Assembly (NCBI GenBank): GCA_965232235.1
Contig: OZ246960.1
Coordinates: forward strand, 3,948,479 to 4,012,478
Length of the DNA: 64,000 nucleotides
Source: Candidatus Poribacteria bacterium
GTDB lineage: Bacteria > Poribacteria > WGA-4E > JAJDTR01
Direction of reading: 5' to 3'
Shown: piece by piece, positions 22,078 to 42,500 of the stretch
Layout of the letters: each line of letters opens with the position of its first letter
How positions within the stretch are numbered: the first letter of the stretch is position 1
Program-made: the position numbers and the translations under genes
Notes under the pieces: model-generated
The model's database searches: none
Told to the model about the DNA's origin: nothing
What the model saw: the letters and a program-made list of their open reading frames with translations, nothing else

Positions 22078-22323
22078 ATTGGTATCTCCTTCAATGTTAT
22101 GTATGTCAACAATCGTGTTGACCAAATTATTTCGAGACTGTTTTTGTTTGTCCGATCTAGGCAACAAATCACTGCACCCAAAACACCGGTGCAGTATAGC
22201 ACGGAGGTGGGTTGTTGTCAATCACATAAACCACCTGAAGGGTGAAGGTCCCTGTAGGAGCGACCTCCCGGTCGCGATTGCATTGTAAGGTGCGATCAAC
22301 CGATACCATTCCGATAAACCGAT

Positions 22324-22390
22324 CTCCGCACTGCAGCGCAGTGCCATGTCAATAGAAACACGATGCGTTCATCCTAGCACTCCAGCGGAG
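22324..22390. repeat. dispersed ~67-bp element, copy A (CTCCGC-ACTGCAGCGCAGT-..-ATGTCAATAGAAAC-..-CACTCCAGCGGAG)
   Basis: It is nearly identical in order and content to 38789..38855. It is bounded by the inverted hexamers CTCCGC/GCGGAG. The adjacent motifs CTGTAGGAGCGACCTCCCGGTCGCGATT and GCGATAGAAATCCC recur at 41.8-42.2 kb. Confidence 0.5.
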
Positions 22391-22726
22391 ATCAAGCGAC
22401 TGGATAAGGAGTGCGATAGAAATCCCCAATGCGAATCATACGGCGCGATAGAGATCTTCCGCACACCAGCCTTCCTATGCAGTTGTACGAACGGCCTACC
22501 GGTCGTGATTTCCCAGCTTCATCTGTCTTGGGCTTGCATTTCCGCGTGTTTTGTGACATATTTATACTCACGTCCATAGGTAAGGACGCATCAACTAACC
22601 ACGACAAGACAATGCGACTGGATATGACATAACTGTTCCGTACGTAACAAGGCGAAACTTTGCGACATGCCACGCCGAATCAAGTCGCAACTACACAAAA
22701 CACGTCTAATTTGCATGGAAGCACAG

Positions 22727-22770
22727 AAGGCGCGTTGGGTATTCTTACCTGTCGCGCCTTTTGTGTTTGC
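22727..22770 (+). terminator. rho-independent-type terminator/insulator upstream of the defense gene
   Basis: AAGGCGCG-(18 nt)-CGCGCCTT stem followed by TTGTGTTTG. Confidence 0.4.
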
Positions 22771-22771
22771 A

Positions 22772-22800
22772 TTGACTCGGTGGCTAACAATATGTATGAT
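22772..22800 (+). promoter_or_regulatory. sigma70-like promoter TTGACT-N17-TATGAT
   Basis: The -10 element ends 43 nt upstream of ATG 22844. Confidence 0.45.
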
Positions 22801-22843
22801 TGCCTTGCACACTCCTGAGAACGGTAACGGTTTGGAATAGACA

Positions 22844-25800
22844 ATGAATAACGAGACAATATTCACCGTCAAAAAGAAACATCTTGACCTACTAGACGAG
22901 GACACAGCAGTTGAGTTCTTTAGCAAACTGCTATGGGCTGAAGCGAACAGACTTGGTCCAGGAACCTGCAAGATTAATGTGCCGAGCCAAACCAAAATCC
23001 CTGATGGTGGAATTGATGCTACCGTTGACGCAGACCGACTTGCGAAACAAAGCGATATAATTGCCCCTGGCAAAAACGGTTACCAAATCCGATCAGGAAC
23101 TGCCTTTAAGCCGTGGCGGGATGGGGATATTCGGAAAGAACTCTTTAAGAAAGGAAGTCCTAAAACCCCTGAAAAAGAGAACTTAAGAGAAAGCATCAAG
23201 GATTGCCTTGATGAATGTGGTATTTACGTTTTAGTTTGCACTGGAATTGATTGTCTTGTTCCTCCCAACCGGAAAAAGGCCTCCAAACTCATTAAAGATT
23301 ACCTAGAAACGTGTGGTTATCCAAAGGCGAAGGTTGAGGTGTGGAGCCAAAACACCCTCCGTTGCTTTCTTGAGTCGTTCCCATCACTGTCTTTGTGGGT
23401 CAATGGACGCAATAGCGCAAAGTTTCAAACGCATGACAGTTGGTCGCGAGATGCGAGCATGCAACGTCCATTTGTTCATGGAGAATCTCAGGATGAATTG
23501 ATTGAAAATCTTCGGAGTGGTTTACGGCGCGCCGATAATAAGGATCCTATGTTAGTGTCCGGGCGGCCCGGCATCGGCAAGACCAGGCTTGTTTTGGAAG
23601 CAACAAACGCCACAGACCTAGCGCCTCTAGTGATTTACGCCCCAGCTGATCAATTCCTTCATGACAAATTTCTAATGGATGAACTTTGCAACGATGAAAA
23701 CGACTTTTCCGCGATTGTGGTAATTGATGATTGCAATCTCCATAGCCGATCAGAAATTTTGGATAAACTGAAGTATCGTGGTCCGAAAATCAAACTCATT
23801 ACCATCTATAATAACCACGAAGAAGCTGCAGGAGATATTACGCCCTATGTTCCCCAACCTCTAGGCGAGGACCAGATTCGCAGCATCATCGAGCAACATA
23901 CGAACGTCTCCGACAACGAAGACAGACGATGGGTTGAGCTCTGCAGTGGATCGCCGAGAGTCGCTCATGTCGTTGGTTGGAATCGGGCAAATTATCCAAG
24001 GGATGTACTCGCCTCTCTGAGCACCGTCAATATCTGGGAGGGCTATATTGTCTCAGTTGACGATCCAAGTCAGGAAAGAACGGAACAACGCAGACGAATA
24101 CTCCGATACATGGCACTGTTTAAGCAATTCGGTTTTGAAGACCCTGTTGGCGAAGAAGCCAAAGCCGTTTCCAAAAAGATTGAGGAGGCGGATCCCCAGA
24201 TTACGTGGACGATATTTCAGGAAATCGTTGATAACCTTAAGAAACGTAAAATCCTTGACGGAGATTATACACTTGCCATCACGCCGAAAGCCCTTCAGAT
24301 TAAGTTATGGATAGAATGGTGGGATATCTATGGCAGGACGTTTGACCTAGATGAATTTATTCAAAACTTTCCCTGCGATTCAAAATTGGTCGAGTGGTTC
24401 TATGAGATGTTTTCGTACGCATCTGAGTCTGGAGTGGCATTAAGCGCTGTGAAGGATCTTCTTGGCCCAGACGGTCCATTCCAACAAAGAAAATATCTGC
24501 AGACAAACCTCGGAAGTAGCTTTTTCTTGGCACTGACTGAAGCAGCCCCGGAATCCGCTCTAGAATGTCTTAAGAAAACGGTTGAGACATGGGATGGAGA
24601 AACCCTATCGCAATTCGTTGGATGTACTTGCGTAGTATTGGCACTTGAAAAGATTGCTGTGTGGAACCGCCTGTTTACAGATGCTGCGGAATTACTCCTT
24701 GCGCTTGGTGACAGTAGTTTTGCTGGACTCTTTTCGCCGGCACCTGGAGGCGTGGCACCGACGGAAGCGTCTCCGAAAGAACGGTTTCCTATCTTGGAGG
24801 GCGCGTTTGAATCGGAATCAAAAGCAAAACGTGTTTTGGCATTGAAGGCGAGTGATGTGGCTTTAGAATCAAGCTATTTCTCGCGATTTGGGAATCCAGA
24901 ATATCAAGGCTTACGTCAGAAACCCAAACTATGGACGCCTAAAACGGAGGGCGAATTTCGGGAGGCACTTCGCCGAGTATGGAAATTACTAGATAGACAG
25001 CTAGCGCGTTTGCCCAACGATGAATGTAAAAAAGGCGCGGCAATTCTGCTAAAACGTGCGCGCGAGATGGTGAGAATCCCAAATCTGGCCAAGATGGTTG
25101 TGGAAACGGTCGCTACAATTGCAAAAGAAGAATATGTAAATAAAAAACACGTTATTGGGACCATTAACCAAATCCTACACTACGATGGCGACAATATACC
25201 TGCGGAAACCCGAGGACTATGGGAGCAACTCATGGGCCAATTGGTTACACCTGACTTTCATTCCATGATGAGACGGTACGTTGGTATGGAATTGCTTGAA
25301 GACCTCCAACTTGGCGACGACCAAAATTACGTAGATCAGGCGCAACTTCAGATTGAAAAGCTCGCCCAACAAGCCATTAGCAATCCATCACGCTTGCAAT
25401 CGGAACTGGCTTGGCTTGTCACAAGCGAGGCCAAGAAGGGATACAATTTCGGGTATGAACTTGGGAAACGAGACAACGGCTTTTCCTTGCTGCTGACGCT
25501 TCTTAAAGCCCAACGAAACGCGGATGACAATGCAAGTACAGCTTTTCTGGGCGGTTATTTCCGTGCGCTCTTTGAATCGGACGCTGACCGGCGAGAAGCA
25601 CAACTTGAAGCGATGATTGATGATACCAAACTAAAACCGCTGATTCCAGCATTGACTTCCCGGTCGGGCCTTACAGATGAGGCGGGATTGCGTCTTCTCC
25701 GCCTCGCAAGAGATGGTACCATGGGTATAAATGACTTCAAAACCTTCACCTATGGCAAAGCCGTTGACGGTTTGTCTAGTGAAATCGTCACGACGTGGGT

Positions 25801-26644
25801 TGAATTTCTACTAGGCGTCAACGACCAAGCAGGTGCATCAATTGCACTGAACCTTTACCACTGCTACTATATCTTCCAGAAACCAGAACGGGATTTACCA
25901 CTTGATGTGACATTCCGATTGCTTCGTCATCAATCCCTGTTTGAAGGATTAGACGGGTATCAATTCGATTCTACCATGACCGCTTATTATTGGACAGAGA
26001 TAGCCAAAGTCTTCCCGCACCTTGATTCCGAAAAGGAATTGGAACTTTCGGAGTTAATGCTTTCCCATTTTGGCGAGGACGGTTCAATTGTTGGCCCTTA
26101 CTCGCGAACATGCTCGGTGCTTGATGAATTGACGCAACAGTATCCCGCTGAGGTCTGGAAGCAGGTTAGTGGACTCTTACAGAGCCAAGGGCATTCTTCA
26201 AGGACCATTGCTCTAGAAAAATGGCTCGGAGAAGGAGCCTCCTGGGGACGAGAAGAATCTAAACCTGCCCTGCTACGAATCCCGTACAAAATAATCTGGG
26301 AGTGGATTGACGAGGATATAGAAAAACGTGCGTGGTATTTCGCTTATAGGCTGGTTCCTATAACCCATTCATCGGAGGAATGGATGATTTCTATGGTAAG
26401 ATCGTTCCTCATCCGCTACGGCAGTCGCAAGGAGGTAAGAAGCGGTCTTATGAGTAACTATTTGTCTGGAGTATCGTTTGGCCCTGCCAGCTCGCACTTA
26501 CAAGCAAAAAAAGAGAAGCTGCTTCAGATAAGGGACATTGAAGATGAAGATGGCGATAATGTCAGGCGTTGGGTTGATGAATTTGTGGCGGAACTGGAAG
26601 GGGGAATTGGACGGGAAACGATGCGTGAGGAGAGAGAACATTAA
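22844..26644 (+). CDS. STAND-type P-loop NTPase with an N-terminal Mrr-like (PD-(D/E)xK restriction-endonuclease fold) domain and a long C-terminal helical sensor region; Avs-like antiviral protein candidate
   Basis: The N-terminus matches the Mrr-cat pattern (AVEFFSKLLWAEANRLG...IPDGGIDATVD...NGYQIRSG...GIYVLVCTGID). Walker A is GRPGIGKT. Walker B is AIVVIDDCNL. About 900 aa of predicted alpha-helical repeats follow. It has a lower GC than its neighbours. Confidence 0.75.
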   Translation: MNNETIFTVKKKHLDLLDEDTAVEFFSKLLWAEANRLGPGTCKINVPSQTKIPDGGIDATVDADRLAKQSDIIAPGKNGYQIRSGTAFKPWRDGDIRKELFKKGSPKTPEKENLRESIKDCLDECGIYVLVCTGIDCLVPPNRKKASKLIKDYLETCGYPKAKVEVWSQNTLRCFLESFPSLSLWVNGRNSAKFQTHDSWSRDASMQRPFVHGESQDELIENLRSGLRRADNKDPMLVSGRPGIGKTRLVLEATNATDLAPLVIYAPADQFLHDKFLMDELCNDENDFSAIVVIDDCNLHSRSEILDKLKYRGPKIKLITIYNNHEEAAGDITPYVPQPLGEDQIRSIIEQHTNVSDNEDRRWVELCSGSPRVAHVVGWNRANYPRDVLASLSTVNIWEGYIVSVDDPSQERTEQRRRILRYMALFKQFGFEDPVGEEAKAVSKKIEEADPQITWTIFQEIVDNLKKRKILDGDYTLAITPKALQIKLWIEWWDIYGRTFDLDEFIQNFPCDSKLVEWFYEMFSYASESGVALSAVKDLLGPDGPFQQRKYLQTNLGSSFFLALTEAAPESALECLKKTVETWDGETLSQFVGCTCVVLALEKIAVWNRLFTDAAELLLALGDSSFAGLFSPAPGGVAPTEASPKERFPILEGAFESESKAKRVLALKASDVALESSYFSRFGNPEYQGLRQKPKLWTPKTEGEFREALRRVWKLLDRQLARLPNDECKKGAAILLKRAREMVRIPNLAKMVVETVATIAKEEYVNKKHVIGTINQILHYDGDNIPAETRGLWEQLMGQLVTPDFHSMMRRYVGMELLEDLQLGDDQNYVDQAQLQIEKLAQQAISNPSRLQSELAWLVTSEAKKGYNFGYELGKRDNGFSLLLTLLKAQRNADDNASTAFLGGYFRALFESDADRREAQLEAMIDDTKLKPLIPALTSRSGLTDEAGLRLLRLARDGTMGINDFKTFTYGKAVDGLSSEIVTTWVEFLLGVNDQAGASIALNLYHCYYIFQKPERDLPLDVTFRLLRHQSLFEGLDGYQFDSTMTAYYWTEIAKVFPHLDSEKELELSELMLSHFGEDGSIVGPYSRTCSVLDELTQQYPAEVWKQVSGLLQSQGHSSRTIALEKWLGEGASWGREESKPALLRIPYKIIWEWIDEDIEKRAWYFAYRLVPITHSSEEWMISMVRSFLIRYGSRKEVRSGLMSNYLSGVSFGPASSHLQAKKEKLLQIRDIEDEDGDNVRRWVDEFVAELEGGIGRETMREEREH

Positions 26645-26670
26645 TCGACCATAATCTCAAGGAAAACCCC

Positions 26671-27210
26671 ATGGCAAACTATCAAGAACTCGCAAATCTC
26701 GTATGGAACGTAGCCGACGATGTCCTCCAAGGCTTATTCAAACCCCACGAATACGGCGACATCACCCTCCCGTTCCTCGTCCTGCGCCGTCTGGACTGCA
26801 TCCTAACGGAAGACGACCGAAAAGACAAAGCCATTGACGTCCACAACCGCTTCAAAGATGGCGTCCCCGAAGAATCCCTGCCCCGGATTATTCTGAACGA
26901 GACGAAATCCAGTTTCTACAACACCTCCCGCTACGACCTCCCCCGACTAAAAGCCGACCCCAACAACATCCGCCTCAACTTCACCAACTACCTCAACGGC
27001 TTCACCAAGGATGTGCGGGACATCATCGAAAACTTCAACCTCGATCAGTTCATTGACCGGCTTTACAACGCAACCTATGATTCTTTCCAACCGTGGACGG
27101 ATGGCTCAGCGCACCATAACGTCCGCAAGATTTCCATAGCGTTTCTGATGCCCGATTCTGGAATGCTCTGCAACGAAGTTACTTCCTCGGAGACAGACTG
27201 TGCTTTATGA
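26671..27210 (+). CDS. DNA N6-adenine methyltransferase N-terminal (HsdM_N-like) domain fragment; probable gene remnant
   Basis: AAGGAAAA RBS 26 nt after the upstream stop. The first ~135 aa match the methylase N-terminal domain (LVWNVADDVLQGLFKPHEYGDITLPFLVLRRLDCIL...FYNTSRYDLPRL...NFTNYLNGFTKDVRDIIENF). No catalytic motifs follow. The last ~45 codons run antisense to the 3' end of the convergent methyltransferase gene. Confidence 0.5.
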   Translation: MANYQELANLVWNVADDVLQGLFKPHEYGDITLPFLVLRRLDCILTEDDRKDKAIDVHNRFKDGVPEESLPRIILNETKSSFYNTSRYDLPRLKADPNNIRLNFTNYLNGFTKDVRDIIENFNLDQFIDRLYNATYDSFQPWTDGSAHHNVRKISIAFLMPDSGMLCNEVTSSETDCAL

Positions 27211-30065
27211 ATCTCAAACATGTACGACACCACAGCGTCAATCTCCTGTCGCACAGGATCTATGGCTGCATCCTTGGCCGGACGCAATGATTGGTTAGAC
27301 AGAACGTCAAATCGCGCCGCTGCCATTTCGAGGATCGCGTCCGACAGTCTGTCTAGGCGCGGGCACGGGATCTTCCTCAAAGCCCCAATCTGCGTCGTCG
27401 ACCGCCCATTTTGCGTCCGTTGACCCTGTGTCCAGTGTACGATCATTCCAAGCGTCGAGTTCCACCACAGCGCAAACGCCTTCCGCACTCGGACATCCTC
27501 ATGTATGAGAGCAGTCCATGCCCGTCCGCCAAGCGCGGGGTGCGCGGTCGACGCAGACAATAGCGCCTGGCTCGTCCACCTAAGATTGCGGGCGTAAAAC
27601 AATGTGCTGACATACAATCTCATCTGTTCGCCCTGCTCCGTCGACCCCACCCCGGGTGGTGCCAATCCCTTGTGGGTCGGTAATACTCGCAGCGAGCGCT
27701 GCGTTTTGGAGGATGCTTCCCACAAAGCTCGATCTACTCCAATCGCATCGGTCTCGCTCGTTACCGGATGAAATTCAAATGCACCTATCGGCTCATTCCC
27801 CTTCGGATGTCCGATTAAGTGGTGCGTTGGTCCCACATGAAAGATGTCTTCAATGGTCCCCATCTCCAATCCCAAAGGAATTGGTGTCCCCGCAATATGA
27901 TCGAGCGTCCCCCGTGTAAGCGCATCGGCGGCCAGTGCCAACCCTCCATGGATTACACCAACCATGTTCCACGGCAATCCTTCACCATTCGCATACATCA
28001 CTGTGATGCACCCAATTTCGCTGTTACCGACGGTAATTGGGTGTGTCATGTTGGTCGCGGTGCACTGCGCCTTCGCTTGCTCAATTGCCCTCGTCACTTC
28101 TCTCGCCTCGCCGTTCCGAGTGCACGGTTCATAAAGTGTCACACAATGCAGCAAAGCACGATCCTTCTTTTGAGGATGCTTGCGCCGCGTTGCAACTAGC
28201 AACATCTCCTCCATCCCAGTGTCTGCCGAAAAACTTGCCTGTTTGAGCGAAGCCCCGCTTGCCGTCGCAATCAGAACAATATCCGTGAATTCCGCTTCGA
28301 CCATTCGCCGCGTTTCCGTCCATGTATCGGCGAAAGCGCATGTGAGGGGTAATACAAACCCAATTCGCCCTGTTCCTGCCTTGACCTTATGCTTGGCTAG
28401 CACAAGAAATGACGCAGCCATCCCAGCTCGCAGCCGCGCGGGTTTGTCGTTCACTAGGACGCCCCATCGTTTCTGACAGCGCTTCCGATCCTCTTCAGTC
28501 AAACCCTTCAAATCAAAAGCGCTCTGGCCGCCGCGTGTCCTAGAATACGGCGGATTCATAAGAATCCAGTCCACGCTGCCGTGACGTACTTCCACGCTTG
28601 ACGCCTCGTGTTGGACCCCACCAGCCCTACCGAGACTTTGCCCGAACAAATCTTCTGTAAACGTAGCCTCTAGATATTCGAGCGCACCAGTCAGTGCTGT
28701 CCTACCACCAACCTTTACCCAGCCAATCTGCGTTTCACCGTAACTTTCCCCTTTCCCTATATTAGCGAGACTTGAGGAAGTCAGGTGCGCTGCAATCGGA
28801 CTAATGTCAGTGCCCCTTAACCCGTGTTCCATCGCGCCGCAATGTAGTTCCGCGACAGAGTCCTCCGTTCCTCCGGCCCATTCATGCAGAGTTTGTACGC
28901 GCAAATAGCCTTCCCTTAAAAGCGTACCCGTACCGCAGGCCAAATCCGCGATAATCGACCGGCGCAGCAAGTCTGACCGGCCCCACTCCGACTCTAGTTT
29001 GTCCGATTGCCGAATCGTTAGACTCGCAAGCAACTCCGCTGTCGCCGGCTGCGTATAGAACGCCGCGCTCTCCTTCCGATCTGAAGCAAGCTTAGGAAAT
29101 AACTCCGCCCCCACGTTTATGTGTTGCCCCAAATCCGCATCCTCAATCATACCCACCGCTTCAATCAACCGTTTGAGAGCTTCGGTCGTTCCGGCACGAT
29201 GAAAGTCACCGCAAACTGCTAGCGCATTGACAGCTGGCTCAAAAATCGACCGCCAGTTGATTTCGATTATTCGCCGCCACGTTTCGACTTGCTCGAATGG
29301 ATTAGGAGTGACACCGGATACCGTCCGAACCGGTGGAATGTCATTAACTCCCTGAACTTGCAGCCGTTGCTGGATCAATAGCGCGTTTAACCAGAGTACC
29401 ATAGTAGTCTGTAATCCCTCCAATGGAGAGTTTTGCCCCACTTGTCCCGCAATTTTCCGTTGCGCGTTCTCGTGGAGAGTCGATTTCAGCGTTTCCGCAG
29501 CTTGTTTCACTAACTGAGCTACCTCTGCTGCGCGGGCCTCCACCACTTCATTAGGCATCGCGGCGGCGGCGATCAGTCGCCTAGCATCATGAACCGTGCC
29601 TTGAATGAACCCTTTAGCTGGCCACCGACGTGTAGTTCCGTCACTCAACCCGCTTTGGTGCAGTGCATACGCAATCTGCTGCAATCCGTCCTTTAACTTC
29701 GCGTATACGGAATCTGCAGAAAGTTCTCGATATTCCTCAGGAATGTGGACCGCCAGAACCGCCAGCAGCGGTCTGCCTCCTCGTGTCGTTTTCTGACCTA
29801 GCCTGTCCTGAGCATCCCTATCGGCATCTGCCGCATTGAATGATGCCTCAATTGCTGCGGCTGGCATCTGCGGGTCATCGATCAAGATATCCGCTCGACC
29901 GGAACTCAGAGTACCCGTCCGTTCTGCCAGAATGTATTCATCAGAATGGCCGAGCCAGCGAGCCTCTGTTTCCGCCAACACCTTGCCAAACTCAATGTTG
30001 AACGTGTGTTCGTGGAGTTTCCCTTTCGATTGCTTAACTAAGTACAGTTGTTCCGTTTCTGGCAT
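27075..30065 (-). CDS. MmeI/PglX-family (Type IIG/IIL-like) N6-adenine DNA methyltransferase, possibly a methyltransferase-nuclease fusion
   Basis: SAM motif I reads ADLACGTGTLL. Motif IV reads WILMNPPYSRTRGG. The N-terminus resembles the MmeI-family nuclease module (EFGKVL...GRADILIDD...AIEAS). A ~490-aa C-terminal target-recognition-type region follows. GC is higher than in the neighbours. Confidence 0.8.
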   Translation of the reverse strand: MPETEQLYLVKQSKGKLHEHTFNIEFGKVLAETEARWLGHSDEYILAERTGTLSSGRADILIDDPQMPAAAIEASFNAADADRDAQDRLGQKTTRGGRPLLAVLAVHIPEEYRELSADSVYAKLKDGLQQIAYALHQSGLSDGTTRRWPAKGFIQGTVHDARRLIAAAAMPNEVVEARAAEVAQLVKQAAETLKSTLHENAQRKIAGQVGQNSPLEGLQTTMVLWLNALLIQQRLQVQGVNDIPPVRTVSGVTPNPFEQVETWRRIIEINWRSIFEPAVNALAVCGDFHRAGTTEALKRLIEAVGMIEDADLGQHINVGAELFPKLASDRKESAAFYTQPATAELLASLTIRQSDKLESEWGRSDLLRRSIIADLACGTGTLLREGYLRVQTLHEWAGGTEDSVAELHCGAMEHGLRGTDISPIAAHLTSSSLANIGKGESYGETQIGWVKVGGRTALTGALEYLEATFTEDLFGQSLGRAGGVQHEASSVEVRHGSVDWILMNPPYSRTRGGQSAFDLKGLTEEDRKRCQKRWGVLVNDKPARLRAGMAASFLVLAKHKVKAGTGRIGFVLPLTCAFADTWTETRRMVEAEFTDIVLIATASGASLKQASFSADTGMEEMLLVATRRKHPQKKDRALLHCVTLYEPCTRNGEAREVTRAIEQAKAQCTATNMTHPITVGNSEIGCITVMYANGEGLPWNMVGVIHGGLALAADALTRGTLDHIAGTPIPLGLEMGTIEDIFHVGPTHHLIGHPKGNEPIGAFEFHPVTSETDAIGVDRALWEASSKTQRSLRVLPTHKGLAPPGVGSTEQGEQMRLYVSTLFYARNLRWTSQALLSASTAHPALGGRAWTALIHEDVRVRKAFALWWNSTLGMIVHWTQGQRTQNGRSTTQIGALRKIPCPRLDRLSDAILEMAAARFDVLSNQSLRPAKDAAIDPVRQEIDAVVSYMFEIHKAQSVSEEVTSLQSIPESGIRNAMEILRTLWCAEPSVHGWKES

Positions 30066-34169: not shown

Positions 34170-34853
34170 ATGAAAAAAGAATTCATCTACGCCGCTATAG
34201 GTGGCTGCATCGGTGCCATCTTAACCTCAATCTTCAACCTGTTCTCTCCACTTAACGCACAGGATATACCGCCTGACGTGACGTTCGGCAAAATAACCTG
34301 TAAAGAGCTTCACGTGCAAGACCCGCTGGGTACCACAAACATAACGGGAGGTGCGATCTACGTAAGTGGTCACCTTCACCTAAGCCCCGAATTAAACAGT
34401 GGCTTAAATCGCCCTAAGCACGTTCGCCACCCACATCGTCATGCACTAAGCGGGGTAACCCAGATATTGGGAGGATACATCGGCGTATCGCCACTAGAGG
34501 ATAAGTATTCTCAGTATACTGTGTCTAAACGCCCTGTGTCTAAAGCCTCTATGTTTTGTGATAAAAACGGCGGCCGTGTGTTGGTAGAAGGAACCCTCGC
34601 CGGTCCAGGCTTGTCGCTGGTCGACATTAAGATAGCAGGTCACGGTGGGTATGTGTCTCTCGAAGGTCAAGACGGGGAATCGGAAGCGGTTATGTACATA
34701 GATGAATACGGTGGCAATTTGGATTTATATGGTAATAATAGCAACGTACCAACGGGAGGCGTGGTACCGCGGGTAATGCTAAGCGTCACCAAAAAGGGAG
34801 ACGGGGTCGTAAATTTATTTGATAAACAAGGCCTACTCACTACTCCACCATGA
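34170..34853 (+). CDS. hypothetical N-terminally membrane-anchored / secreted Gly-rich beta protein
   Basis: GGAGG lies 5 nt upstream of the ATG. The N-terminal hydrophobic helix is FIYAAIGGCIGAILTSIFNLF. Gly-rich repeats occur (ITGGAIYVSGHLHL, GHGGYVSLEGQDG). Confidence 0.55.
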   Translation: MKKEFIYAAIGGCIGAILTSIFNLFSPLNAQDIPPDVTFGKITCKELHVQDPLGTTNITGGAIYVSGHLHLSPELNSGLNRPKHVRHPHRHALSGVTQILGGYIGVSPLEDKYSQYTVSKRPVSKASMFCDKNGGRVLVEGTLAGPGLSLVDIKIAGHGGYVSLEGQDGESEAVMYIDEYGGNLDLYGNNSNVPTGGVVPRVMLSVTKKGDGVVNLFDKQGLLTTPP

Positions 34854-35050: not shown

Positions 35051-35295
35051 ACGAAAACGGGTTGGCAACTGATAACGATAACCTTTTCCGAAAAACCTTT
35101 GAATCTACATGTGGAAATCCCATACGCAGCCCCTCGCGTGTCTGAATGGACTTTGCAAAACCGTGTACTCACCATACACATATTCTGCGACACAAGGGCG
35201 TTTCCAGATCATATCTACCCAATTCAGCTATTTTGGGCTTCAGGATACATCATCCTTAACTATCACTTTCCCCTTTAGTAGGAAGGAGTCACACC

Positions 35296-35586: not shown

Positions 35587-35702
35587 GAACAGACCGAATA
35601 ATGCGATGTGCACCTAACAGCCCCTGCGTTTACGGACGTTGGGACTTTTTTTCAGGTAACTGTCACATAATGAGATTGACCACTCCACCAATAGGATAAT
35701 TT

Positions 35703-37595
35703 TTGATGAAATGTTCGCTCTACACCGTTCTTGTGTTGCTATGGGCGCTAGCATCACCCCTAGCGGCACAACCCGTGCACATACCCGACCCAAACCTACG
35801 CACCGCCGTGCGCGAATCCATTGATCTTCCAAATGGCGCACCGATTACTCGTGATGCTATGCTTCAGTTGATTAAGCTTCGTCCTGGAAGCCGCGGCATT
35901 GAAAATCTATCCGGTGTGGAGTTCGCAAAAAACCTCAGAGAACTATCAATCTGGGGCAACCCCATAACCGACCTCAGTCCTATCGCCGGACTGACTAAGT
36001 TGGAACTGCTGTACATGTGGGGGACACCGATTTCGGATATTACACCACTAGCGAATCTGGCGAATCTGATAAATTTGCGTCTGAACTATTGCAACGTTGC
36101 CGATATAAGCCCAGTTGCACATTTGCTTAAACTTGAGAAACTGTCATTAGCCGGAAATGGGATCGCCGACGTTGGACCTCTTGCCAATTTAACGCAACTC
36201 CGACTCCTCAACCTCGAAAACAATGGCATTGTGGATGTGCGTCCGTTGGCGGGCCTGCGTCGATTAGAAACATTAACAATAGAGAACAACCGTATAACAG
36301 ACCACAGTCCACTTGACGTATTGATGTTAGACCACTTTTCACACGACCTCGATACGCCGTGCGACATGGCGCCGCTGCCTTTGGAGCCGCGCATCGAAGG
36401 CAGAAACTTTCCATCTCTTTTCACCGCGTGGAGCGATAAAGATCGGTGGCCAATGTTCGATTTGATTTTTTGCTGTCCCCGGTTCGACGCCCGGCTTCGT
36501 GAAATAGGAGACGGGTTTCATTTCCGCACGGCTCACGCATCGTGGGAAGGGCCAGCTAGCGTGCGCGACGCTTACTTGGCGCGAAATCCAAATATGGTGT
36601 TCCTCCACGGTCTGTCTGTTATTATCCATGAGCTTGACAGCTTGCCCGAAGATTCTCCCTACTGGCTGCGTGATGAGCACGGCGGCATAGTCGTTAAATG
36701 GGGCATTTACGGCTTAATGGATCTTAATCATCCGGGTTGGCAGCAGCGGATGATTGACATCGCGGTGACGATAGACCGGTGTGGTTTGTACGACGGAATT
36801 TTTGTCGACGCATGGGGTAAAGGAGGACATCCTGGACAGGTAGCTATTCTGAAAGGAATACGCGAACGGGTGAGGGACAACTTTCTTATTATGGTCAACA
36901 CGAATTACAATCAAGCACCCGCCTCGGCGCCGTACATCAACGGATTATTTATGGAAACCGTTTTCCCGCAAAGAAAACGCGATCCTGAAGACATTGAATC
37001 GCGGTTGGTTACAATTGAAAATACTCTGAAATGGGCGGAAAGCACACTGCTGGAGCCCCGAATTACGGGACTCTGTGGCGACTACTATAGCGATCAACCA
37101 CCGGACAGCCCGACGAATACGCGGTGGATGCGGGCTATGACTACCTTGGGGCTGACGTTTAGCGACGATTATGTCGCTTTCCCGTTACGACATGGACCTT
37201 GGTACGATTTTTGGAACGCCGACCTCGGACGCCCGGTCGGAGAAACGCTGCAACTTTATGACAGTCGAGAGGGGCTTTATATCCGGGAATTCACGAACGG
37301 TTGGGCGGTGTATAACCACAGCGGGGCGGCTCAGATTGTTACACTGCCCGAGGAAGTTCAATCGGCGGCAACCGGTATAAGCAATACAGATCACCCCGTA
37401 CTCAACCTGGACGGCGACATCTTTCTCCGCATAGAGGCTTCGTTGCCGGGCGATCTTAACGGCGACGGCACGGTTAACATTCTGGATTTAATTATTGTTG
37501 CCGAATCAATCGGCACGGACAAACGCGAGGCTGCCTTGAACGGCGACGGTGTGGTGAACGTGTTCGATTTGGTTTTCGTCGCGAATGCTTTTTAG
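35703..37595 (+). CDS. secreted leucine-rich-repeat protein with a central uncharacterised (possibly glycoside-hydrolase-like) domain and a C-terminal dockerin module
   Basis: The signal peptide is MMKCSLYTVLVLLWALASPLAA. About 8 LRRs of 22 aa are present (L..L..L.L..N.I.D..PLA). The C-terminal tandem Ca-binding dockerin repeats read DLNGDGTVNILDLIIV and LNGDGVVNVFDLVFV. Confidence 0.8.
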   Translation: MMKCSLYTVLVLLWALASPLAAQPVHIPDPNLRTAVRESIDLPNGAPITRDAMLQLIKLRPGSRGIENLSGVEFAKNLRELSIWGNPITDLSPIAGLTKLELLYMWGTPISDITPLANLANLINLRLNYCNVADISPVAHLLKLEKLSLAGNGIADVGPLANLTQLRLLNLENNGIVDVRPLAGLRRLETLTIENNRITDHSPLDVLMLDHFSHDLDTPCDMAPLPLEPRIEGRNFPSLFTAWSDKDRWPMFDLIFCCPRFDARLREIGDGFHFRTAHASWEGPASVRDAYLARNPNMVFLHGLSVIIHELDSLPEDSPYWLRDEHGGIVVKWGIYGLMDLNHPGWQQRMIDIAVTIDRCGLYDGIFVDAWGKGGHPGQVAILKGIRERVRDNFLIMVNTNYNQAPASAPYINGLFMETVFPQRKRDPEDIESRLVTIENTLKWAESTLLEPRITGLCGDYYSDQPPDSPTNTRWMRAMTTLGLTFSDDYVAFPLRHGPWYDFWNADLGRPVGETLQLYDSREGLYIREFTNGWAVYNHSGAAQIVTLPEEVQSAATGISNTDHPVLNLDGDIFLRIEASLPGDLNGDGTVNILDLIIVAESIGTDKREAALNGDGVVNVFDLVFVANAF

Positions 37596-37647
37596 TTCAA
37601 AGTAATTCAACGTCGCCGCACTTCGGGCACAACTGAACGGATGACAC

Positions 37648-38187
37648 ATGAAAAGTAAATGGTCCCTAGACAAGATTGGATTCGTTCGCGCCTTTTTTGC
37701 TATTTTGGTAATTCGGCTCGTGTTCTTTTATCATACCCCGTCTTTGACTTTAGTTTACCTTGGTTATCTGGCAACCCAATCAATCGTCGTATTAATGTTG
37801 TTATTCCCTGTTTGGGCGATTGCCAGTGGATTCAACCGTGCCACGATGCCCAGTGTGTTTTGTTGGAGAGGCCGCATCACACGATTGAAATGGTTATCCA
37901 TCATCCCGATAAACCTTTTAAATATCCTTTTAATCGTATTCGCTTATTCCCATTCTTACGTAACGTGGAGTATGGGCGCGCTGGCATGGATGGTGTTTAT
38001 CAGCCCTTGGATAACAGCGGTGTCAACGACAAAACGTCTTCACGATATCAACAAATCTGGTTGGTGGCAGCTGTTATTGTGGTTGATACCAGTGTTTGGT
38101 CCGTTGGCCGCTATTATCGTGCTGGGTTGTTTTAAGGGCACTGTAGGGCCAAATCCATTTGGAGCGGATCCCAAAGCGCCGACATAA
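37648..38187 (+). CDS. DUF805-family inner-membrane protein
   Basis: Motif RLHDINKSGWWQLLLWLIPVFGPLAAIIVLGCFKGTVGPNPFG. Confidence 0.75.
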   Translation: MKSKWSLDKIGFVRAFFAILVIRLVFFYHTPSLTLVYLGYLATQSIVVLMLLFPVWAIASGFNRATMPSVFCWRGRITRLKWLSIIPINLLNILLIVFAYSHSYVTWSMGALAWMVFISPWITAVSTTKRLHDINKSGWWQLLLWLIPVFGPLAAIIVLGCFKGTVGPNPFGADPKAPT

Positions 38188-38475
38188 TGACGACTGATAA
38201 TTTGACAGGTGCTTGGTTCATTGGTTCGATTATTTGGCACACCAACCCTAGCTTCTCACGCCGCTTTTTCACAACTGCCAAATCTTTCGCATTCTCTTTT
38301 TCGCTTCAGCGGGGCGCTACGTCTGTAGCAAACCGTAAACCCCACTTGCACTCCAGCCTGCGATTACGCGAGCAATGCACGAGTCATCAAGGGAGATCAA
38401 TCGAAGGGACAGATCAACTGAGCGAATAACGCAGCCGGAAGTAAATCCTGTGCCCGGTCTTTGGTTAATCAATAC

Positions 38476-38656
38476 GGCAAACTGCCATTAAATCCTCGAT
38501 TCCCTCCCTCACCGCCCACCACCCCTCCCAATCCGTGAAATCCGTGTAATCTGCGTAATCTGTGATTCAGACCACCCACCACCATTTCCACTCTCACCGC
38601 CGCCCCTAATCCTGCCAATCCAAAAATCACATGAATCACAGTTCAGACAATCCCCT
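38476..38656. repeat. ~180-bp direct repeat, copy 1 (strand-asymmetric, C/A-rich, G-poor)
   Basis: It is ~90% identical to 38881..39069. It contains the short tandem unit AATCCGTG / AATCTGCG. Confidence 0.6.
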
Positions 38657-38788
38657 TCACCAACCACCCCGTCGCCACTCTGCCCCGTCCTCTACAGGTC
38701 GCGATGCCCCACTCCCCCGTGAAATCAAACCGGCGGACAAAGAGCGCTATCCGAATCATCAACCCCGACACAATTCCCATATTCCAAT

Positions 38789-38855
38789 CTCCCCACTGCA
38801 GCGCAGTACAATGTCAATAGAAACGAACGATACCCGTACACGCACTCCAGCGGAG
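38789..38855. repeat. dispersed ~67-bp element, copy B
   Basis: It matches 22324..22390. It lies between the two ~180-bp direct repeats. Confidence 0.5.
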
Positions 38856-38880
38856 TGCAATGTTTTTGGTTTATCCCTGC

Positions 38881-39069
38881 GGCAAACCGCCATCAAATCC
38901 TCAGTTCCCTCCCCCGACTCCCACCATCCCTCCCAATCCGTGAAATCCGTGAAATCCGTGTAATCTGCGTAATCTGTGCTTCAGACCACCCACCACCATT
39001 TCCACTCTCACCGCCACCCCTAATCCTGCCAATCCAAAAATCACATGAATCACAGTTCAGACAATCCCC
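38881..39069. repeat. ~180-bp direct repeat, copy 2
   Basis: See copy 1. This copy has one extra AATCCGTG unit. Confidence 0.6.
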
Positions 39070-39238
39070 CTCACTGGCGACTGCTCACTGGTCACTAAAC
39101 ACTGCATTTCCCACTCTCACCACTCGCCACCGATCACTGCTTTTCTCTCCCCTCCCACTCCCTCTTGTCTTCCCCGCTCTACACTCATCACTCTCCACTG
39201 CTTTTCCCTTTCTACAATGTTAGATTTTTCATTATCGC

Positions 39239-39267
39239 TTGACAAGTCCACCATAACATGCTATTAT
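39239..39267 (+). promoter_or_regulatory. near-consensus sigma70 promoter TTGACA-N17-TATTAT
   Basis: Perfect -35 box, 17-nt spacer, and a -10 matching 5 of 6. It lies ~265 nt upstream of ATG 39533. Confidence 0.45.
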
Positions 39268-39397
39268 TGTAACTGAATTTATCTCGTGTTGACATTGTGG
39301 CATTAGACCACATTCGCGGCGGTTGACCATACGATGAATCAACGCAAGCCGCTGTCAACTGAACTGACTCATAAAGAGAGCCCATTTGAGGCCAAAC

Positions 39398-39438
39398 CTG
39401 TTGTCAATCAACAGTTAGCCTTAAGTGGGCTTTTTTTG
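39398..39438 (+). terminator. leader hairpins plus T7 tract (attenuator-like) between the promoter and the terminase-operon RBS
   Basis: CTGTTG-tcaat-CAACAG, then a short GCC/GGC stem, then TTTTTTT. Confidence 0.3.
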
Positions 39439-39532
39439 TTCCATCTGACCGCTGAACAACTGATTTGCCGGAGTAAATTTTCTGTTGCCGCTTGTGGCTG
39501 TTCATTCACCACCTTATCTTAGGAGTTCCTGT

Positions 39533-40093
39533 ATGAAACACGTTCAAATCAAACTCACGGACGAAGAGCGTGCCGATACCATCTATCAACGGGTCTGGCA
39601 CAATACCACCACAACTGCTATTGTCGACGCCCTTATAAAGGCGCATCCCGAATGGAAGGATGTGCCTCGGCGAATAATCCAAGACGCCACGCGAACCTGC
39701 AATCCGTTCCACAGTAAATTCGCGGAAAAATGGAAGCCAATCTATGAAAGCACTCTCAAGCACTTTCAAGCAGAGCGAGAAAGACACACCCAAGGCACGT
39801 CATTACACGCCTCCATGGCAATTTTTAAGCTAATCGACAAAGTGCTTGAAGGTGTCGATCGCGTCGAATTACAAAGCCCGAATGATGTGCTGTCAATTGC
39901 CCGTAGTATTGCGCCGATTAGAAAAGTCCTAACGCTGAGCATCAGCGCCAACTCAAGTGACGAAGATAATGACGAAGATAATTCCAAGCAAGGACATGAT
40001 GCAAGCGATGCCGCACTGCGAACGCTGGAGAGTCTTGGACACTGTACGCAAGAAGATGAAAAACAATCAAGAAGACGAAGCCGCGATGATTAG
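39533..40093 (+). CDS. hypothetical protein, positional candidate for terminase small subunit
   Basis: AGGAG lies 7 nt upstream of the ATG. Its stop overlaps the terminase large-subunit start (ATGATTAG). It has an acidic, Ser/Asp-rich C-terminus. No direct homology is recognised. Confidence 0.5.
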   Translation: MKHVQIKLTDEERADTIYQRVWHNTTTTAIVDALIKAHPEWKDVPRRIIQDATRTCNPFHSKFAEKWKPIYESTLKHFQAERERHTQGTSLHASMAIFKLIDKVLEGVDRVELQSPNDVLSIARSIAPIRKVLTLSISANSSDEDNDEDNSKQGHDASDAALRTLESLGHCTQEDEKQSRRRSRDD

Positions 40094-41768
40094 GGCGCAC
40101 GCCGGCTACCGGTGGCCCGAGCTTTTCGTCTGGTTGTACATCAGAAACATCAGCTACCGCATGCTAGAACTCAAACCATTCCACATCCAAATCCTCAACG
40201 CCATCAGACCCGGCGAATACGGTAAGCAGATTAACATTCAAGCCCCGCGCGGCACCGGCAAAACCACCCTCGTCAACCGCCTAATCCCCCTATGGCGAAT
40301 CTGCTACAAAGCATTCGATCTCGCCATGGGCCGCCAACCCGAAGAATTCATCCTCATCGTCGGTCGCGACGCAGACAAGGCGCGCCAACGTATTTCCGAA
40401 ATCCGCGAAGTGCTCGAATACAACCCCCTAATCAGACGCGACTTCGGCGACCTCGTCGGTTCTCCATGGACAAAAAACGAAACCGACACCCGCAACGGCA
40501 TCGGACTGAGACCTCTCGGACGCGGTTCCTCCCCTCGCGGCGCCCTCCTCGGCGATGTGCGGCCAACACTCAAGCTCTGCGACGACATCGAAGACCCCAA
40601 GCGCTGCCTCAATCCCAAGCTACGGCAAGAAGACAGAGAATGGTTCATGACCGACTTCATGTACGCCGGTGATCTCGGTAGCACGCATTCCAACACCATG
40701 ATAGTCGATACCGTCAAACACCCCGAATCCCTCTCCGAACACCTCCGCACCCTACCCGGTTGGCGGACGCTGCGGTATGAAGCCGTCCGCGATCCCAAAG
40801 ACATCTACCACCCCACCGCCGAGCACCTCTGGAAAGAGTGGGAACGTATCTACAGCGACACGACGCTCGACGACGAGCAACGCCAACGGCAAGCGCAAGA
40901 ATTTCACGAGGAACACCGCCGCGAAATGGATTCCGGCGTGCAGATGCTATGGCCCGAGCAGCTGCCGTACCTCCAGGTCCGCAAAGAAATCGTCGAGCGC
41001 GGCTACCACAACGTCATGCGCGAACTCCAGAACGACGCCCGCGATCCGTCAATGGCATTGTTCAACATGGATAACGCGCTGACGTTTGCCGTCACCGACG
41101 AAGGCTTTCGCCGTTCCGATGGGCGTGTTGTGCCATGGCACGATATGGGCGGCTTCGTAACATACCTCGACACCATGGGCGGGCGCGATGCCGCCGAAAA
41201 TAGTTTCGCGTGTGCTGTTGTCGTCGTTTGGGAACCGCTGATTGGCGGTCAATCGCTTAACCCCGATTCGCTCTCCGGTGTGAACGGATACATACTGCTC
41301 GCCTGGCTCGACCGCGTCGCACTCACCGAGCAAATGGAGCGCGCCATCCTCCTCGCCCAGCGCGCCGAGGCGATGTTGGCGCCGGCGCATCCCAAATCCC
41401 ACTTCGTTTGCGAACAGCGCCCCGACAAAGACGGCACCATCCGCAAATCGACCGACGATGCCTTCCGTGCCATGAAAGAGCGCCACCGCTTTGAACGTAG
41501 AATCATGTATCACGACCAGCACCAGAACAAAGAAGACCGTATAGCCACCCTTGAGCCAGCCATAGCCAACGGATGGCTCGCCTTCAACGAGCGGGACTTG
41601 CCTCCCGAATTTTGGACCCAGTTTCGCCAATTCCCGTCGGCGGACCACAACGACGCCCCCGACGCCGTCCAAGGCGCGGTACGATCGCGCATCACCACTA
41701 CCGCGAAACAACGCGCCGATCTATCTGCCGCGCGTCGATTCAACCGCAACTCCGTCGTGCGACTGTAA
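40086..41768 (+). CDS. terL: phage terminase large subunit (ATPase plus RNase-H-like nuclease)
   Basis: Q-motif/Walker A region is HIQILNAIRP...QAPRGTGKTT. Nuclease motifs are YLDTMGGRDAAENSFACAVVVVW and FPSADHNDAPDAVQGAV. The start ATG overlaps the upstream stop. GC is high. Confidence 0.8.
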   Translation: MIRAHAGYRWPELFVWLYIRNISYRMLELKPFHIQILNAIRPGEYGKQINIQAPRGTGKTTLVNRLIPLWRICYKAFDLAMGRQPEEFILIVGRDADKARQRISEIREVLEYNPLIRRDFGDLVGSPWTKNETDTRNGIGLRPLGRGSSPRGALLGDVRPTLKLCDDIEDPKRCLNPKLRQEDREWFMTDFMYAGDLGSTHSNTMIVDTVKHPESLSEHLRTLPGWRTLRYEAVRDPKDIYHPTAEHLWKEWERIYSDTTLDDEQRQRQAQEFHEEHRREMDSGVQMLWPEQLPYLQVRKEIVERGYHNVMRELQNDARDPSMALFNMDNALTFAVTDEGFRRSDGRVVPWHDMGGFVTYLDTMGGRDAAENSFACAVVVVWEPLIGGQSLNPDSLSGVNGYILLAWLDRVALTEQMERAILLAQRAEAMLAPAHPKSHFVCEQRPDKDGTIRKSTDDAFRAMKERHRFERRIMYHDQHQNKEDRIATLEPAIANGWLAFNERDLPPEFWTQFRQFPSADHNDAPDAVQGAVRSRITTTAKQRADLSAARRFNRNSVVRL

Positions 41769-41789
41769 AACTGATTCAAAATCTCAGCT

Positions 41790-42260
41790 ATACGTAGCGT
41801 GGAATCAAGAGAGTGAATAGCGACCGCGATAGAGATCCCCTGCCCACCATTCCATATTTCCGTCGGGTGGGAGGGGCATCTTGCCCCGATTGATTACGAA
41901 ACGATCAACTGACCGAATCGTATCAAGCGAATGAATAATAAGCGATCAACCGACTGATTAAGGAGGGCGATAGGAATTCCGCCTCTGTAGGAGCGATCTC
42001 CGAATCGCGACAATCCTAAAACGAGTCATCAATCCGCTATATGTAGGGTGGAATCAAGCGAATGGATAGTGAGCGATCAAGGGAGATCAAACGAACGATC
42101 AAAGGAATGAATAATGACTGCGATAGAAATCCCATAGAGATCTTTGCGCGATAGAAAGTCCTGATAGAAATCCCTCGACCTCCCGGTCGCGATTTCCTCT
42201 TTGCGCGTAAGTTCTGGACTGAACTAAACAATTACGTAAATCTTGTAGCGATCAACTGAG
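41790..42260. repeat. cluster of short dispersed word repeats (GCGATAGARATCCC, CTGTAGGAGCGAYCTCC..TCGCGA, GATCAAGGGAGATCAA, GCGATCAACYGA)
   Basis: The same words occur at 22250-22420 and 38390-38420. They are irregularly spaced and therefore not a CRISPR array. Confidence 0.5.
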
Positions 42261-42500
42261 TCGAAGGTTGGGTTGAACGGAAATCCGTTAGTAACCGCTA
42301 ATTTTGTAGACGTTTTCGAGTGCCTACGTCGCTTGAACGTGCAAAGTTTGAAGGAAACCCAACTCGTTCTACCATCATGAGATTTCCTCTTCAATTATAT
42401 ATGTCTCCCTGAACTTCGAAGCCTTTTCGCTTGTCAGTTTTCACATACTTTGCTATAATCGAAACTCCCGAAACAAGGCATTGTCAGCAACAAATCCGAA

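What the first reader, a model, noticed from the sequence alone, without database searches (positions are those of the whole stretch)
22240..42300. About 20 kb compositionally patchy island, bounded and internally punctuated by the same short repeat families, inserted in a carbohydrate-utilisation locus
To the left of ~22.2 kb lie the sugar-acid catabolism genes. To the right of ~42.4 kb lies a sugar ABC importer. In between is a different cargo: defense genes, unknown small and secreted proteins, an LRR-dockerin protein, DUF805, and terminase genes. GC content swings widely across this stretch. The word repeats CTGTAGGAGCGA(C/T)CTCC..TCGCGA, GCGATAGARATCCC and GATCAAGGGAGATCAA occur at 22.25-22.42 kb, 38.39 kb and 41.8-42.25 kb. 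These positions are the left edge, the edge of the terminase module, and the right edge. No integrase or tRNA gene is seen, so this would be a degraded or non-canonical mobile element.
Basis: partly seen in the sequence, partly recalled or inferred. Interest (0 to 1): 0.6.

Follow-up and report, generated by a model that had tools for sequence, protein, structure and literature searches.

The report
Variable island with orphaned terminase cassette
A 20-kb stretch in a sponge-symbiont (Poribacteria) chromosome is a real, strain-variable inserted island whose right end is the leftover packaging module of a small integrase-plus-terminase mobile element, while the short repeats at its edges are genome-wide intergenic repeats, not the element's own ends.

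Summary
Window 22,232-42,406 is extra DNA between two back-to-back core promoters: a related Poribacteria genome (L123, ~85% nt identity) has the Gfo/Idh/MocA gene and the sugar-ABC binding-protein gene adjacent, with the promoters ~27 bp apart. Two strains ~97% identical carry different DNA at this position. No integrase or tRNA is present.

The edge repeats are real but not element-specific. CTGTAGGAGCGAYCTCC..TCGCGA is a GTAG-tagged REP hairpin found in at least 119 stretches, almost all from Poribacteria genomes. It is mostly extragenic and also flanks housekeeping genes. The GCGATAGARATCCC and GATCAAG words belong to a 36-nt unit that is also dispersed.

The informative part is the right end. 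A 2.4-kb cassette (186-aa ORF plus large terminase, 39,379-41,768) recurs at ~80% identity in many Poribacteria chromosomes, never with capsid genes. In four relatives it is paired with a tyrosine integrase. In three of those it sits directly upstream of the orthologous transporter operon.

The island is best read as an integration hot spot holding an integrase-less derivative of such an element, plus defence and symbiosis-type cargo. The island is ordinary in kind. The element family appears undescribed in the searchable literature. Interest is moderate.

The parts
22193..22221 (-). Promoter-like site of the Gfo/Idh/MocA gene (TTGACA-17-TATACT). This is the last core sequence on the left.
   Evidence: 11 of 12 matches, TG present. 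Window 22182-22231 aligns with L123 9600-9649.
22232..42406 (.). Variable segment (~20.2 kb) that is absent from the empty site of a related genome.
   Evidence: In L123, positions 9649 and 9677 flank only ~27 bp. Their window counterparts are 22231 and 42407.
22252..22279 (+). GTAG-tagged REP hairpin, C-type (GCGACC tccc GGTCGC).
   Evidence: fold -14.8 kcal/mol; REP profile E 2.9e-8. Synteny with strains L001 and L002 ends at 22261.
22292..22512 (+). Left repeat mosaic A. It holds a 36-nt family-2 unit at 22391-22426, two GCGATAGAnATC words, and a CACTGCAGCGCAGT...GCACTCCAGCGGAG family copy.
   Evidence: The block is 93.6% identical to L001 6546-6749.
22844..26644 (+). 1266-aa protein, like the PD-Lambda-4_A defence protein over its N-terminal 700 residues, with a weak AAA_16 hit.
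26671..27073 (+). N-terminal fragment of a Type I methyltransferase gene (hsdM). Homology stops where the convergent gene ends.
   Evidence: HsdM_N E 2e-17 and MTase_I E 4e-37, both covering residues 2-134 only.
27075..30065 (-). 996-aa protein with an NPPY motif, probably a methyltransferase. The segment is higher in GC (0.54-0.55).
   Evidence: sequence. (weak mad2 and Type IIG hits). (GC). No PDB, Pfam or NCBIfam match.
30763..31818 (+). PD40 beta-propeller protein built from 6.5 copies of a 132-bp unit at 87% identity.
34170..34853 (+). 227-aa protein with an N-terminal hydrophobic segment. It is homologous to the gene next to the integrase in intact relatives.
   Evidence: tblastn: L212 203-aa protein 28% identity, E 7e-10; L127 186-aa protein 32% identity, E 5e-8.
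35703..37595 (+). Protein with LRR, GHL15 and dockerin domains.
37648..38187 (+). DUF805 membrane protein.
38190..39378 (.). Non-coding repeat spacer between the cargo and the terminase cassette. It holds two ~200-bp direct repeats (38450-38662 and 38855-39075), a 9-nt microsatellite, a copy of the mosaic-A family (38749-38855), family-2-like words at 38385-38440, and a promoter-like site at 39239-39267.
39379..41768 (+). Terminase cassette: a 186-aa ORF in the small-terminase position (39533-40093) overlapping the large terminase (about 40035/40056 to 41768).
   Evidence: phrog_38 E 6e-53. The block is conserved at 80-83% nt with L125, L126 and L212-L215 at other chromosomal sites. Walker A/B-like and nuclease-domain acidic residues are invariant across 16 homologs.
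41780..42260 (+). Right repeat mosaic B. It holds family-2 units at 41804, 41922, 41945, 42053 and 42098, a REP at 41985-42011, a GGGGCATCTTGCCCC hairpin at 41866-41891, and a REP tail at 42176-42194 that repeats 22261-22279 exactly over 19 nt.
42431..42459 (+). Promoter-like site of the sugar-ABC operon (TTGTCA-17-TATAAT). This is the first core sequence on the right; the binding-protein gene runs 42540-43850.
   Evidence: Window 42407-42461 aligns with L123 9677-9731. L212-L214 align from window 42414.

Best explanation
The segment 22,232-42,406 is accessory DNA in an integration and recombination hot spot between two divergently transcribed core genes of a Candidatus Poribacteria chromosome.

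Its right-hand 2.4 kb is the packaging module (a small-terminase-position ORF plus a large terminase) of a Poribacteria family of small integrative elements. Intact members of this family consist of a tyrosine-integrase module and this terminase module. They insert at recurrent sites, with the terminase end next to the core gene.

In the window the integrase module is missing. Its place is taken by ~16 kb of cargo that looks assembled in several steps:
- a defence block with a truncated hsdM;
- a higher-GC methyltransferase-like gene;
- repeat-protein genes of the kind I recall as typical of sponge symbionts (my own knowledge);
- DUF805;
- small unknown ORFs.

The short repeats at the edges and before the terminase module are copies of genome-wide Poribacterial repeats: GTAG-tagged REP hairpins and a 36-nt unit that forms mosaics. 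They do not define the element.

Shown: the insertion relative to a related genome, variability among strains, the dispersed nature of the repeats, and recurrence of the cassette with integrases at the same junction.

Inferred: that the window's island descends from such an element by loss of its integrase; that homology between repeat mosaics drives module and cargo turnover; and that the elements are phage-satellite-like.
For: Empty site. L123 has the xylose-isomerase-like, Gfo and binding-protein genes adjacent. The homologs of the Gfo and operon promoters lie ~27 bp apart there, against 20.2 kb apart in the window.

Strain variability. L001 and L002 are 97% identical up to window 22261 and then diverge into other cargo, such as IS1595 fragments and unknown ORFs. 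In L001, blocks matching window 22301-22504 and 41922-42101 lie 61 nt apart. So ~19.4 kb of the window is absent between them.

Cassette recurrence. 132 large-terminase homologs of at least 54% identity were found, nearly all unnamed metagenome or MAG proteins; the one shown with a name is annotated Poribacteria. Several clusters share the same longest contig, which suggests more than one copy per chromosome. The cassette is 80-83% identical in nucleotides at non-homologous sites.

Integrase partners. L126 has integrase, a 331-aa gene, a 182-aa ORF and the large terminase upstream of nuoA. L127 has the same plus a BstA-like gene. L212, L213 and L214 have integrases, a 203-aa gene, a 176-aa ORF and the large terminase directly upstream of the orthologous transporter operon (85% nt over 4.8 kb, aligned from window 42414).

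No capsid or portal gene appears in any context. The window has no integrase but keeps a homolog of the integrase-adjacent gene.

Repeats are general. The REP word occurs in at least 119 stretches, almost all Poribacteria. Its hairpin stem shows a compensatory T-A/C-G change. It is depleted from long open frames, 16% against 80% for random positions. It flanks metG. The 36-nt unit occurs in 16 REP-selected loci that have no terminase or integrase.
Against: No att core or target duplication could be defined from the window, L123 and L212 junctions. Only the right junction is shared with L212-L214; their left neighbours differ. Nothing shows that the 16-kb cargo ever belonged to the same element as the terminase cassette. 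With few genomes compared, gain in the window's lineage cannot be formally separated from loss in L123's lineage. In more distant relatives (L129, L130, L124) the neighbours differ again. The small-terminase assignment rests on position alone: no family hit, and the AlphaFold model was unusable at pLDDT 43.
Confidence: 0.6

Rival explanations
1. The whole 20 kb is one degraded integrative element, and the flanking repeat mosaics are its attL and attR ends.
For: The integrase-terminase element of L126 is flanked on both sides by a REP plus 36-nt units. In L126 and L212-L214 further units separate the integrase module from the terminase module. A 19-nt exact direct repeat, CGACCTCCCGGTCGCGATT, lies at 22261 and 42176. 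Within the 64-kb window these repeats occur only at the island's ends.
Against: The same repeats occur in ordinary intergenic DNA: the nuo operon of L126, next to metG, and 16 loci with no element genes. The 19-nt repeat is simply the common C-type REP tail. Composition and the truncated hsdM point to several separate events. There is no integrase.
Confidence: 0.2
2. The region is ancestral to this lineage and was deleted in L123's lineage. It would then be a decaying old region, not an insertion.
For: The direction of change cannot be set from one empty site. More distant relatives have yet other neighbours beside the Gfo gene or the binding-protein gene.
Against: Strains 97% identical already differ here. 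The content is defence, phage-derived and repeat-protein genes. Tetranucleotide usage deviates from the flanks. The terminase cassette is a multi-site family.
Confidence: 0.12
3. The junctions are an assembly artefact: a metagenome-assembled chromosome mis-joined at the dispersed repeats.
For: The junctions lie in repeat mosaics, and L001's contig ends about 7 kb beyond the junction.
Against: Proteins identical to the window's large terminase and 186-aa ORF are on record on a 5.63-Mb contig. Independent assemblies (L212-L214) show the same terminase-to-transporter junction. The mosaics are only 0.2-0.5 kb long, which (my inference) long reads would span.
Confidence: 0.03

Closest known systems
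GTAG-tagged repetitive extragenic palindromes (REP, BIME, REPIN; Di Nocera et al. 2013, PMC3733652)
   Same: The repeat is a 27-nt unit with an unpaired GTAG head followed by a short G+C-rich hairpin. It is multi-copy, mostly extragenic, often in inverted doublets about 66 nt long, and clustered into mosaics.
   Different: The paper's abstract reports tagged REPs in 8 phyla; I found no paper linking Poribacteria to REPs or REPINs. No REP-associated tyrosine transposase (RAYT) was found, though the test was weak. The accompanying 36-nt unit is not palindromic, is GATC-rich, and favours promoter-side intergenic DNA (29 divergent against 4 convergent gaps), which is unlike typical REPs.
Genomic or defence islands at integration hot spots between core genes
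   Same: The segment is present or absent among close relatives. It carries defence-type genes and a mobile-element remnant. Its composition is atypical. Different strains hold different cargo at the same site.
   Different: There is no tRNA, no integrase and no definable att site in this copy.
Phage satellites: PICI, capsid-forming PICI and PICMI (Barcia-Cruz et al. 2024, PMC10803314)
   Same: The intact relatives (L126, L127, L212-L214) are 5-10 kb, site-specific and integrase-bearing. They carry packaging genes and sometimes a defence gene such as BstA, but no virion structural genes.
   Different: The relatives carry a large terminase without capsid genes. As I recall, classical PICIs carry at most a small terminase, and capsid-forming PICIs carry terminase together with capsid genes. 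PICMIs encode excision and replication proteins and integrate next to fis. No helper phage, replication gene or induction is known here. The window's copy lacks the integrase.
Cryptic prophage remnant
   Same: A phage-type large terminase sits alone in the chromosome.
   Different: The same two-gene cassette is intact and ~80% conserved in seven contexts besides the window, all without structural genes, and catalytic residues are invariant. This argues against random decay of a prophage. No IMG/VR contig encodes a terminase above 31% identity.

Membership tests
GTAG-tagged REP | Short (20-40 bp) unit with a palindromic stem | tested here: met
   A 5-bp stem is intact in 118 of 140 copies. One stem pair (unit positions 13 and 20) is T-A in 86 copies, C-G in 31 and T.G in 16, with 7 non-pairs. 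The window copies fold at -14.8 and -7.3 kcal/mol.
GTAG-tagged REP | Unpaired GTAG motif at one end | tested here: met
   CTGTAGGAGCGA... carries GTAG 5' of the stem in all copies. The search pattern itself included this motif.
GTAG-tagged REP | High copy number per genome | tested here: inconclusive
Whole-genome counts were not possible.
GTAG-tagged REP | Predominantly extragenic location | tested here: met
   16% of copies lie in open frames of at least 150 codons, against 80% of random positions.
GTAG-tagged REP | Associated RAYT transposase in the genome | tested here: inconclusive
   tblastn with an IS200-type probe recalled from memory found nothing in about 1 Mb of sampled loci. The sample is small and the probe distant.
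Genomic island | Present or absent among related genomes at a conserved site | tested here: met
   Empty site in L123. Alternative content in L001 and L002.
Genomic island | Atypical composition | tested here: inconclusive
   Tetranucleotide distance is higher inside (p 1e-5, non-independent windows). The GC spread is not significantly larger (p 0.11).
Genomic island | Integrase, tRNA target and flanking direct repeats | tested here: not met
   No tRNA and no integrase. The only flanking direct repeat is a generic REP tail.
Large terminase (TerL) | Full-length match to terminase profiles, with ATPase and nuclease motifs | tested here: met
   phrog_38 E 6e-53 across residues 36-595. TIGR01630 and NF033889 match below their cut-offs. 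R65, G66, K69, D176, D177, E179 and C-terminal acidic residues are invariant. 2858 representative proteins match at E up to 0.001.
Small terminase (TerS) | Sequence or fold match to a small-terminase family | tested here: inconclusive
   No Pfam, PHROG or NCBIfam hit. The AlphaFold model had pLDDT 43. Only the position supports it, plus fast divergence: 31-43% aa identity between sub-families whose large-terminase genes are about 80% identical in nucleotides.
Phage satellite (PICI-like) | Integrase and site-specific insertion | tested here: not met
   Absent in the window. Present in relatives L126, L127 and L212-L214, which share two recurrent sites.
Phage satellite (PICI-like) | Mobilisation by a helper phage | not testable with these tools
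   This needs induction or virome data.
PD-Lambda-4 defence system | Both genes A and B present | tested here: not met
   Only an A-like match, covering profile positions 3-714 of 1283. No B partner was detected among the island ORFs scanned.

The most novel reading that the evidence does not exclude
The 186-aa ORF plus large-terminase cassettes, always bracketed by arrays of the 36-nt GATC-rich unit in the terminase orientation, may be working packaging modules. They would belong to an undescribed family of capsid-less, integrase-bearing phage satellites in Poribacteria, or to a domesticated packaging system resembling a gene transfer agent. The dispersed 36-nt arrays would serve as integration pads or as terminase recognition (pac or cosB-like) sites. 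On this reading the window's island is a cargo-swollen derivative that has lost its integrase but could still be packaged in trans.
Probability: 0.2. Interest if true: 0.7.

Novelty: new variant of a known kind. Interest (0 to 1): 0.42.

Why it matters
Poribacteria are, as far as I know, uncultivated sponge symbionts, so their gene flow can only be read from sequence. This locus shows a concrete route for that flow. It is a recurrent insertion site upstream of a sugar-transporter operon. Small integrase-plus-terminase elements occupy that site. Defence and host-interaction genes accumulate next to them.

If the elements prove to be satellites that bring their own terminase, they would extend the known range of phage satellites. 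They would also point to unseen helper phages in sponge microbiomes.

The REP-like and 36-nt repeats give a phylum-wide marker of dispensable intergenic DNA. They are also a warning: shared short repeats at the edges of an island are not evidence of element ends in these genomes.

Tried and rejected
- Exact-protein look-ups of the window's binding protein (two alternative starts) and permease found nothing. Synteny was reached through homologs instead.
- Rfam gave no match at the gathering threshold or at E up to 1 across the island. A known RNA family for the repeats or the 39.2-39.4 kb promoter-terminator pair is therefore not supported.
- IMG/VR has no close large terminase. With a family alignment the best hit is 31% identical, so no candidate parent or helper phage emerged.
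- PDB sequence searches for the 996-aa protein and the large terminase found nothing.
- AlphaFold on the 186-aa ORF with 17 near-identical homologs gave pLDDT 43, so no fold search was attempted.
- The RAYT probe was negative.
- Comparing junctions in the window, L123, L212 and L213 revealed no shared att core.
- The idea that the 36-nt units are specific to the terminase elements was rejected. They occur in 16 loci with no terminase or integrase homolog, and inside the nuo operon of L126.
- The metagenome scan with the Gfo protein returned only more distant relatives with short upstream flanks and different neighbours.
- Alternative cargo in L001 and L002 has no Pfam or NCBIfam identity.

Full report
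**Source organism.** The window comes from a Candidatus Poribacteria chromosome. The 17-nt repeat word is found almost only in Poribacteria MAGs. The named homologs of the binding protein are mostly annotated Poribacteria. Proteins identical to the window's large terminase and 186-aa ORF are on record on a 5.63-Mb contig.

- The two edge regions (22240-22520 and 41770-42310) share 37 distinct 9-mers, nearly all in the same orientation and mostly absent from the rest of the window.
- The 38.39-kb match is weak by itself. It lies in a 1.2-kb non-coding spacer (38190-39378) that carries two ~200-bp direct repeats and a copy of a family also present in the left mosaic.
- The gene content is as described, with two corrections. 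Only the large terminase is verifiable (phrog_38, E 6e-53). The defence genes are a PD-Lambda-4_A-like protein, a 134-residue HsdM fragment, and a 996-aa NPPY protein with only weak methyltransferase hits.
- There is no tRNA and no integrase.
- Composition is only mildly patchy. GC is 0.447-0.577 inside against 0.438-0.548 outside. The spread is not significantly larger. Tetranucleotide usage deviates more inside than outside.

**It is an insertion relative to a related genome.** In L123 (~85% nt identity in the shared genes; 380-kb contig) the xylose-isomerase-like, Gfo and binding-protein genes are adjacent.
- The Gfo promoter-like block (window 22182-22231) matches L123 9600-9649.
- The transporter promoter-like block (window 42407-42461) matches L123 9677-9731.
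- These blocks are ~27 bp apart in L123 and 20.2 kb apart in the window.

**It varies among strains.** Two contigs 97% identical to the window (L001, L002) lose synteny at 22261, inside the REP, and continue into different repeat mosaics and different cargo. In L001, blocks matching window 22301-22504 (93.6%) and 41922-42101 (95%) are 61 nt apart. So ~19.4 kb of the window is missing between them. More distant relatives have yet other neighbours. The site is therefore a hot spot with turnover.

**The edge repeats are genome-wide.** Almost all are Poribacteria of many species, with several per chromosome.
- The unit is a GTAG head followed by a hairpin. One stem pair (unit positions 13 and 20) is T-A in 86 copies, C-G in 31 and T.G in 16 of 140. 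That is a compensatory pattern.
- 55 of 140 copies have an inverted partner, giving a ~66-nt doublet.
- Copies avoid long open frames: 16% against 80% for random positions.
- In L004 they flank metG.
- This fits the published definition of GTAG-tagged REPs. I found no paper on REPs in Poribacteria.

The other words belong to a 36-nt unit, ATCAAGCGAnTGGATAAGGAGTGCGATAGAAATCCC.
- A profile of this unit finds six copies in the window, all at the island's two ends.
- It also finds copies in 16 REP-selected loci of other genomes. None of those encodes a terminase or integrase homolog.
- Copies also lie inside the nuo operon of L126.

**The terminase cassette is the informative part.** Window 39379-41768 (the 186-aa ORF plus the large terminase) is conserved at 80-83% nt with L125, L126 and L212-L215 at other chromosomal positions.
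- The large-terminase family has 132 members of at least 54% identity. Several clusters share the same longest contig, which suggests multiple copies per chromosome.
- ATPase and nuclease residues are invariant.
- No context contains capsid or portal genes.
- L126 carries integrase, a 331-aa gene, a 182-aa ORF and the large terminase (5.3 kb) upstream of nuoA.
- L215 has the cassette at the same nuoA site, without an integrase.
- L127 and L128 carry a ~9.7-kb version with a BstA-like gene.
- L212, L213 and L214 carry integrases, a 203-aa gene, a 176-aa ORF and the large terminase directly upstream of the orthologous sugar-ABC operon. That operon is 85% identical in nt over 4.8 kb, with alignment starting at window 42414.

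The window's cassette therefore sits at a recurrent junction of an integrative element family, with the terminase end facing the core operon. The window lacks the integrase. It retains a homolog (34170-34853) of the gene that neighbours the integrase in L212 and L127.

**Repeat position in the relatives.** In L126 and L212-L214, clusters of the 36-nt unit lie left of the integrase module, between the integrase and terminase modules, and right of the terminase module, always on the terminase strand. Because the units are also common elsewhere, I read them as repeats that populate dispensable, promoter-side intergenic DNA (29 divergent against 4 convergent gaps). They probably offer homology for module and cargo exchange. 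A more specific role as integration pads or terminase recognition sites is not excluded.

**Conclusion.** The island is genuine and variable, and it is partly a degraded mobile element. It is also composite: a truncated hsdM abuts a higher-GC gene, and the terminase cassette has its own composition. Its flanking repeats are not its own. As a genomic island it is ordinary. The integrase-plus-terminase element family and the Poribacterial repeat families appear undescribed in the searchable literature.

**Limits.**
- No att core could be defined.
- The small-terminase role is unproven.
- The RAYT test was weak.
- IMG/VR holds no close terminase.
- Rfam has no match.

Noticed in passing
window 1-9883: At least nine tandem paralogous PD40/TolB-like beta-propeller genes share 60-96% identical segments. 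The island's own PD40 gene (30763-31818) is a separate, internally repeated member of the family.
   Followed up: partly
L126 6468-11734; L127 2152-11722; L212 1835-8707; L215 6463-8704: These are small Poribacteria elements made of tyrosine integrase(s), an unknown 331-aa or 203-aa gene, a 172-189-aa ORF and a large terminase, with no capsid genes. They occupy two recurrent sites: upstream of nuoA (L126, L215) and upstream of the sugar-ABC operon (L212-L214 and the window).
   Followed up: partly
window 39533-40093 compared with L212 6478-7008 and L215 6463-7032: The ORF in the small-terminase position is only 31-43% identical in aa between sub-families whose large-terminase genes are about 80% identical in nucleotides. 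This would fit a specificity subunit that evolves fast.
   Followed up: no
window 22240-22470 and 41780-42260: GATC occurs at 17-19 per kb in the repeat mosaics, against 2.9 per kb in the whole window.
   Followed up: no
window 39239-39437: A strong promoter-like site (TTGACA-17-TATTAT, 39239-39267) is followed about 150 nt later by a terminator-like hairpin with a T-run (39417-39431), just upstream of the terminase cassette. The conserved cassette block starts at 39379. This could be a short transcript or a leader. There is no Rfam match.
   Followed up: no
window 26671-27210 and 27075-30065: The hsdM homology ends at about 27073, exactly where the convergent 996-aa gene stops (27075). This suggests replacement or deletion of the rest of a Type I restriction-modification system.
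   Followed up: partly
window 42265-42400; L098 4345-4489; L020 5717-5862: A further ~140-nt dispersed element (72-77% identity) with a GGTTGGGTT...AACCCAAC hairpin lies just upstream of the transporter promoter.
   Followed up: no
L123 9270-9680: The empty site carries its own lineage-specific repeat. A ~137-bp unit is duplicated in tandem, and a ~30-nt piece of it sits exactly between the two promoters.
   Followed up: no
window 58452-60443 and 60591-62576: Two adjacent paralogous genes of about 660 aa on the minus strand share 68-73% identical segments (families D16 and D17).
   Followed up: no
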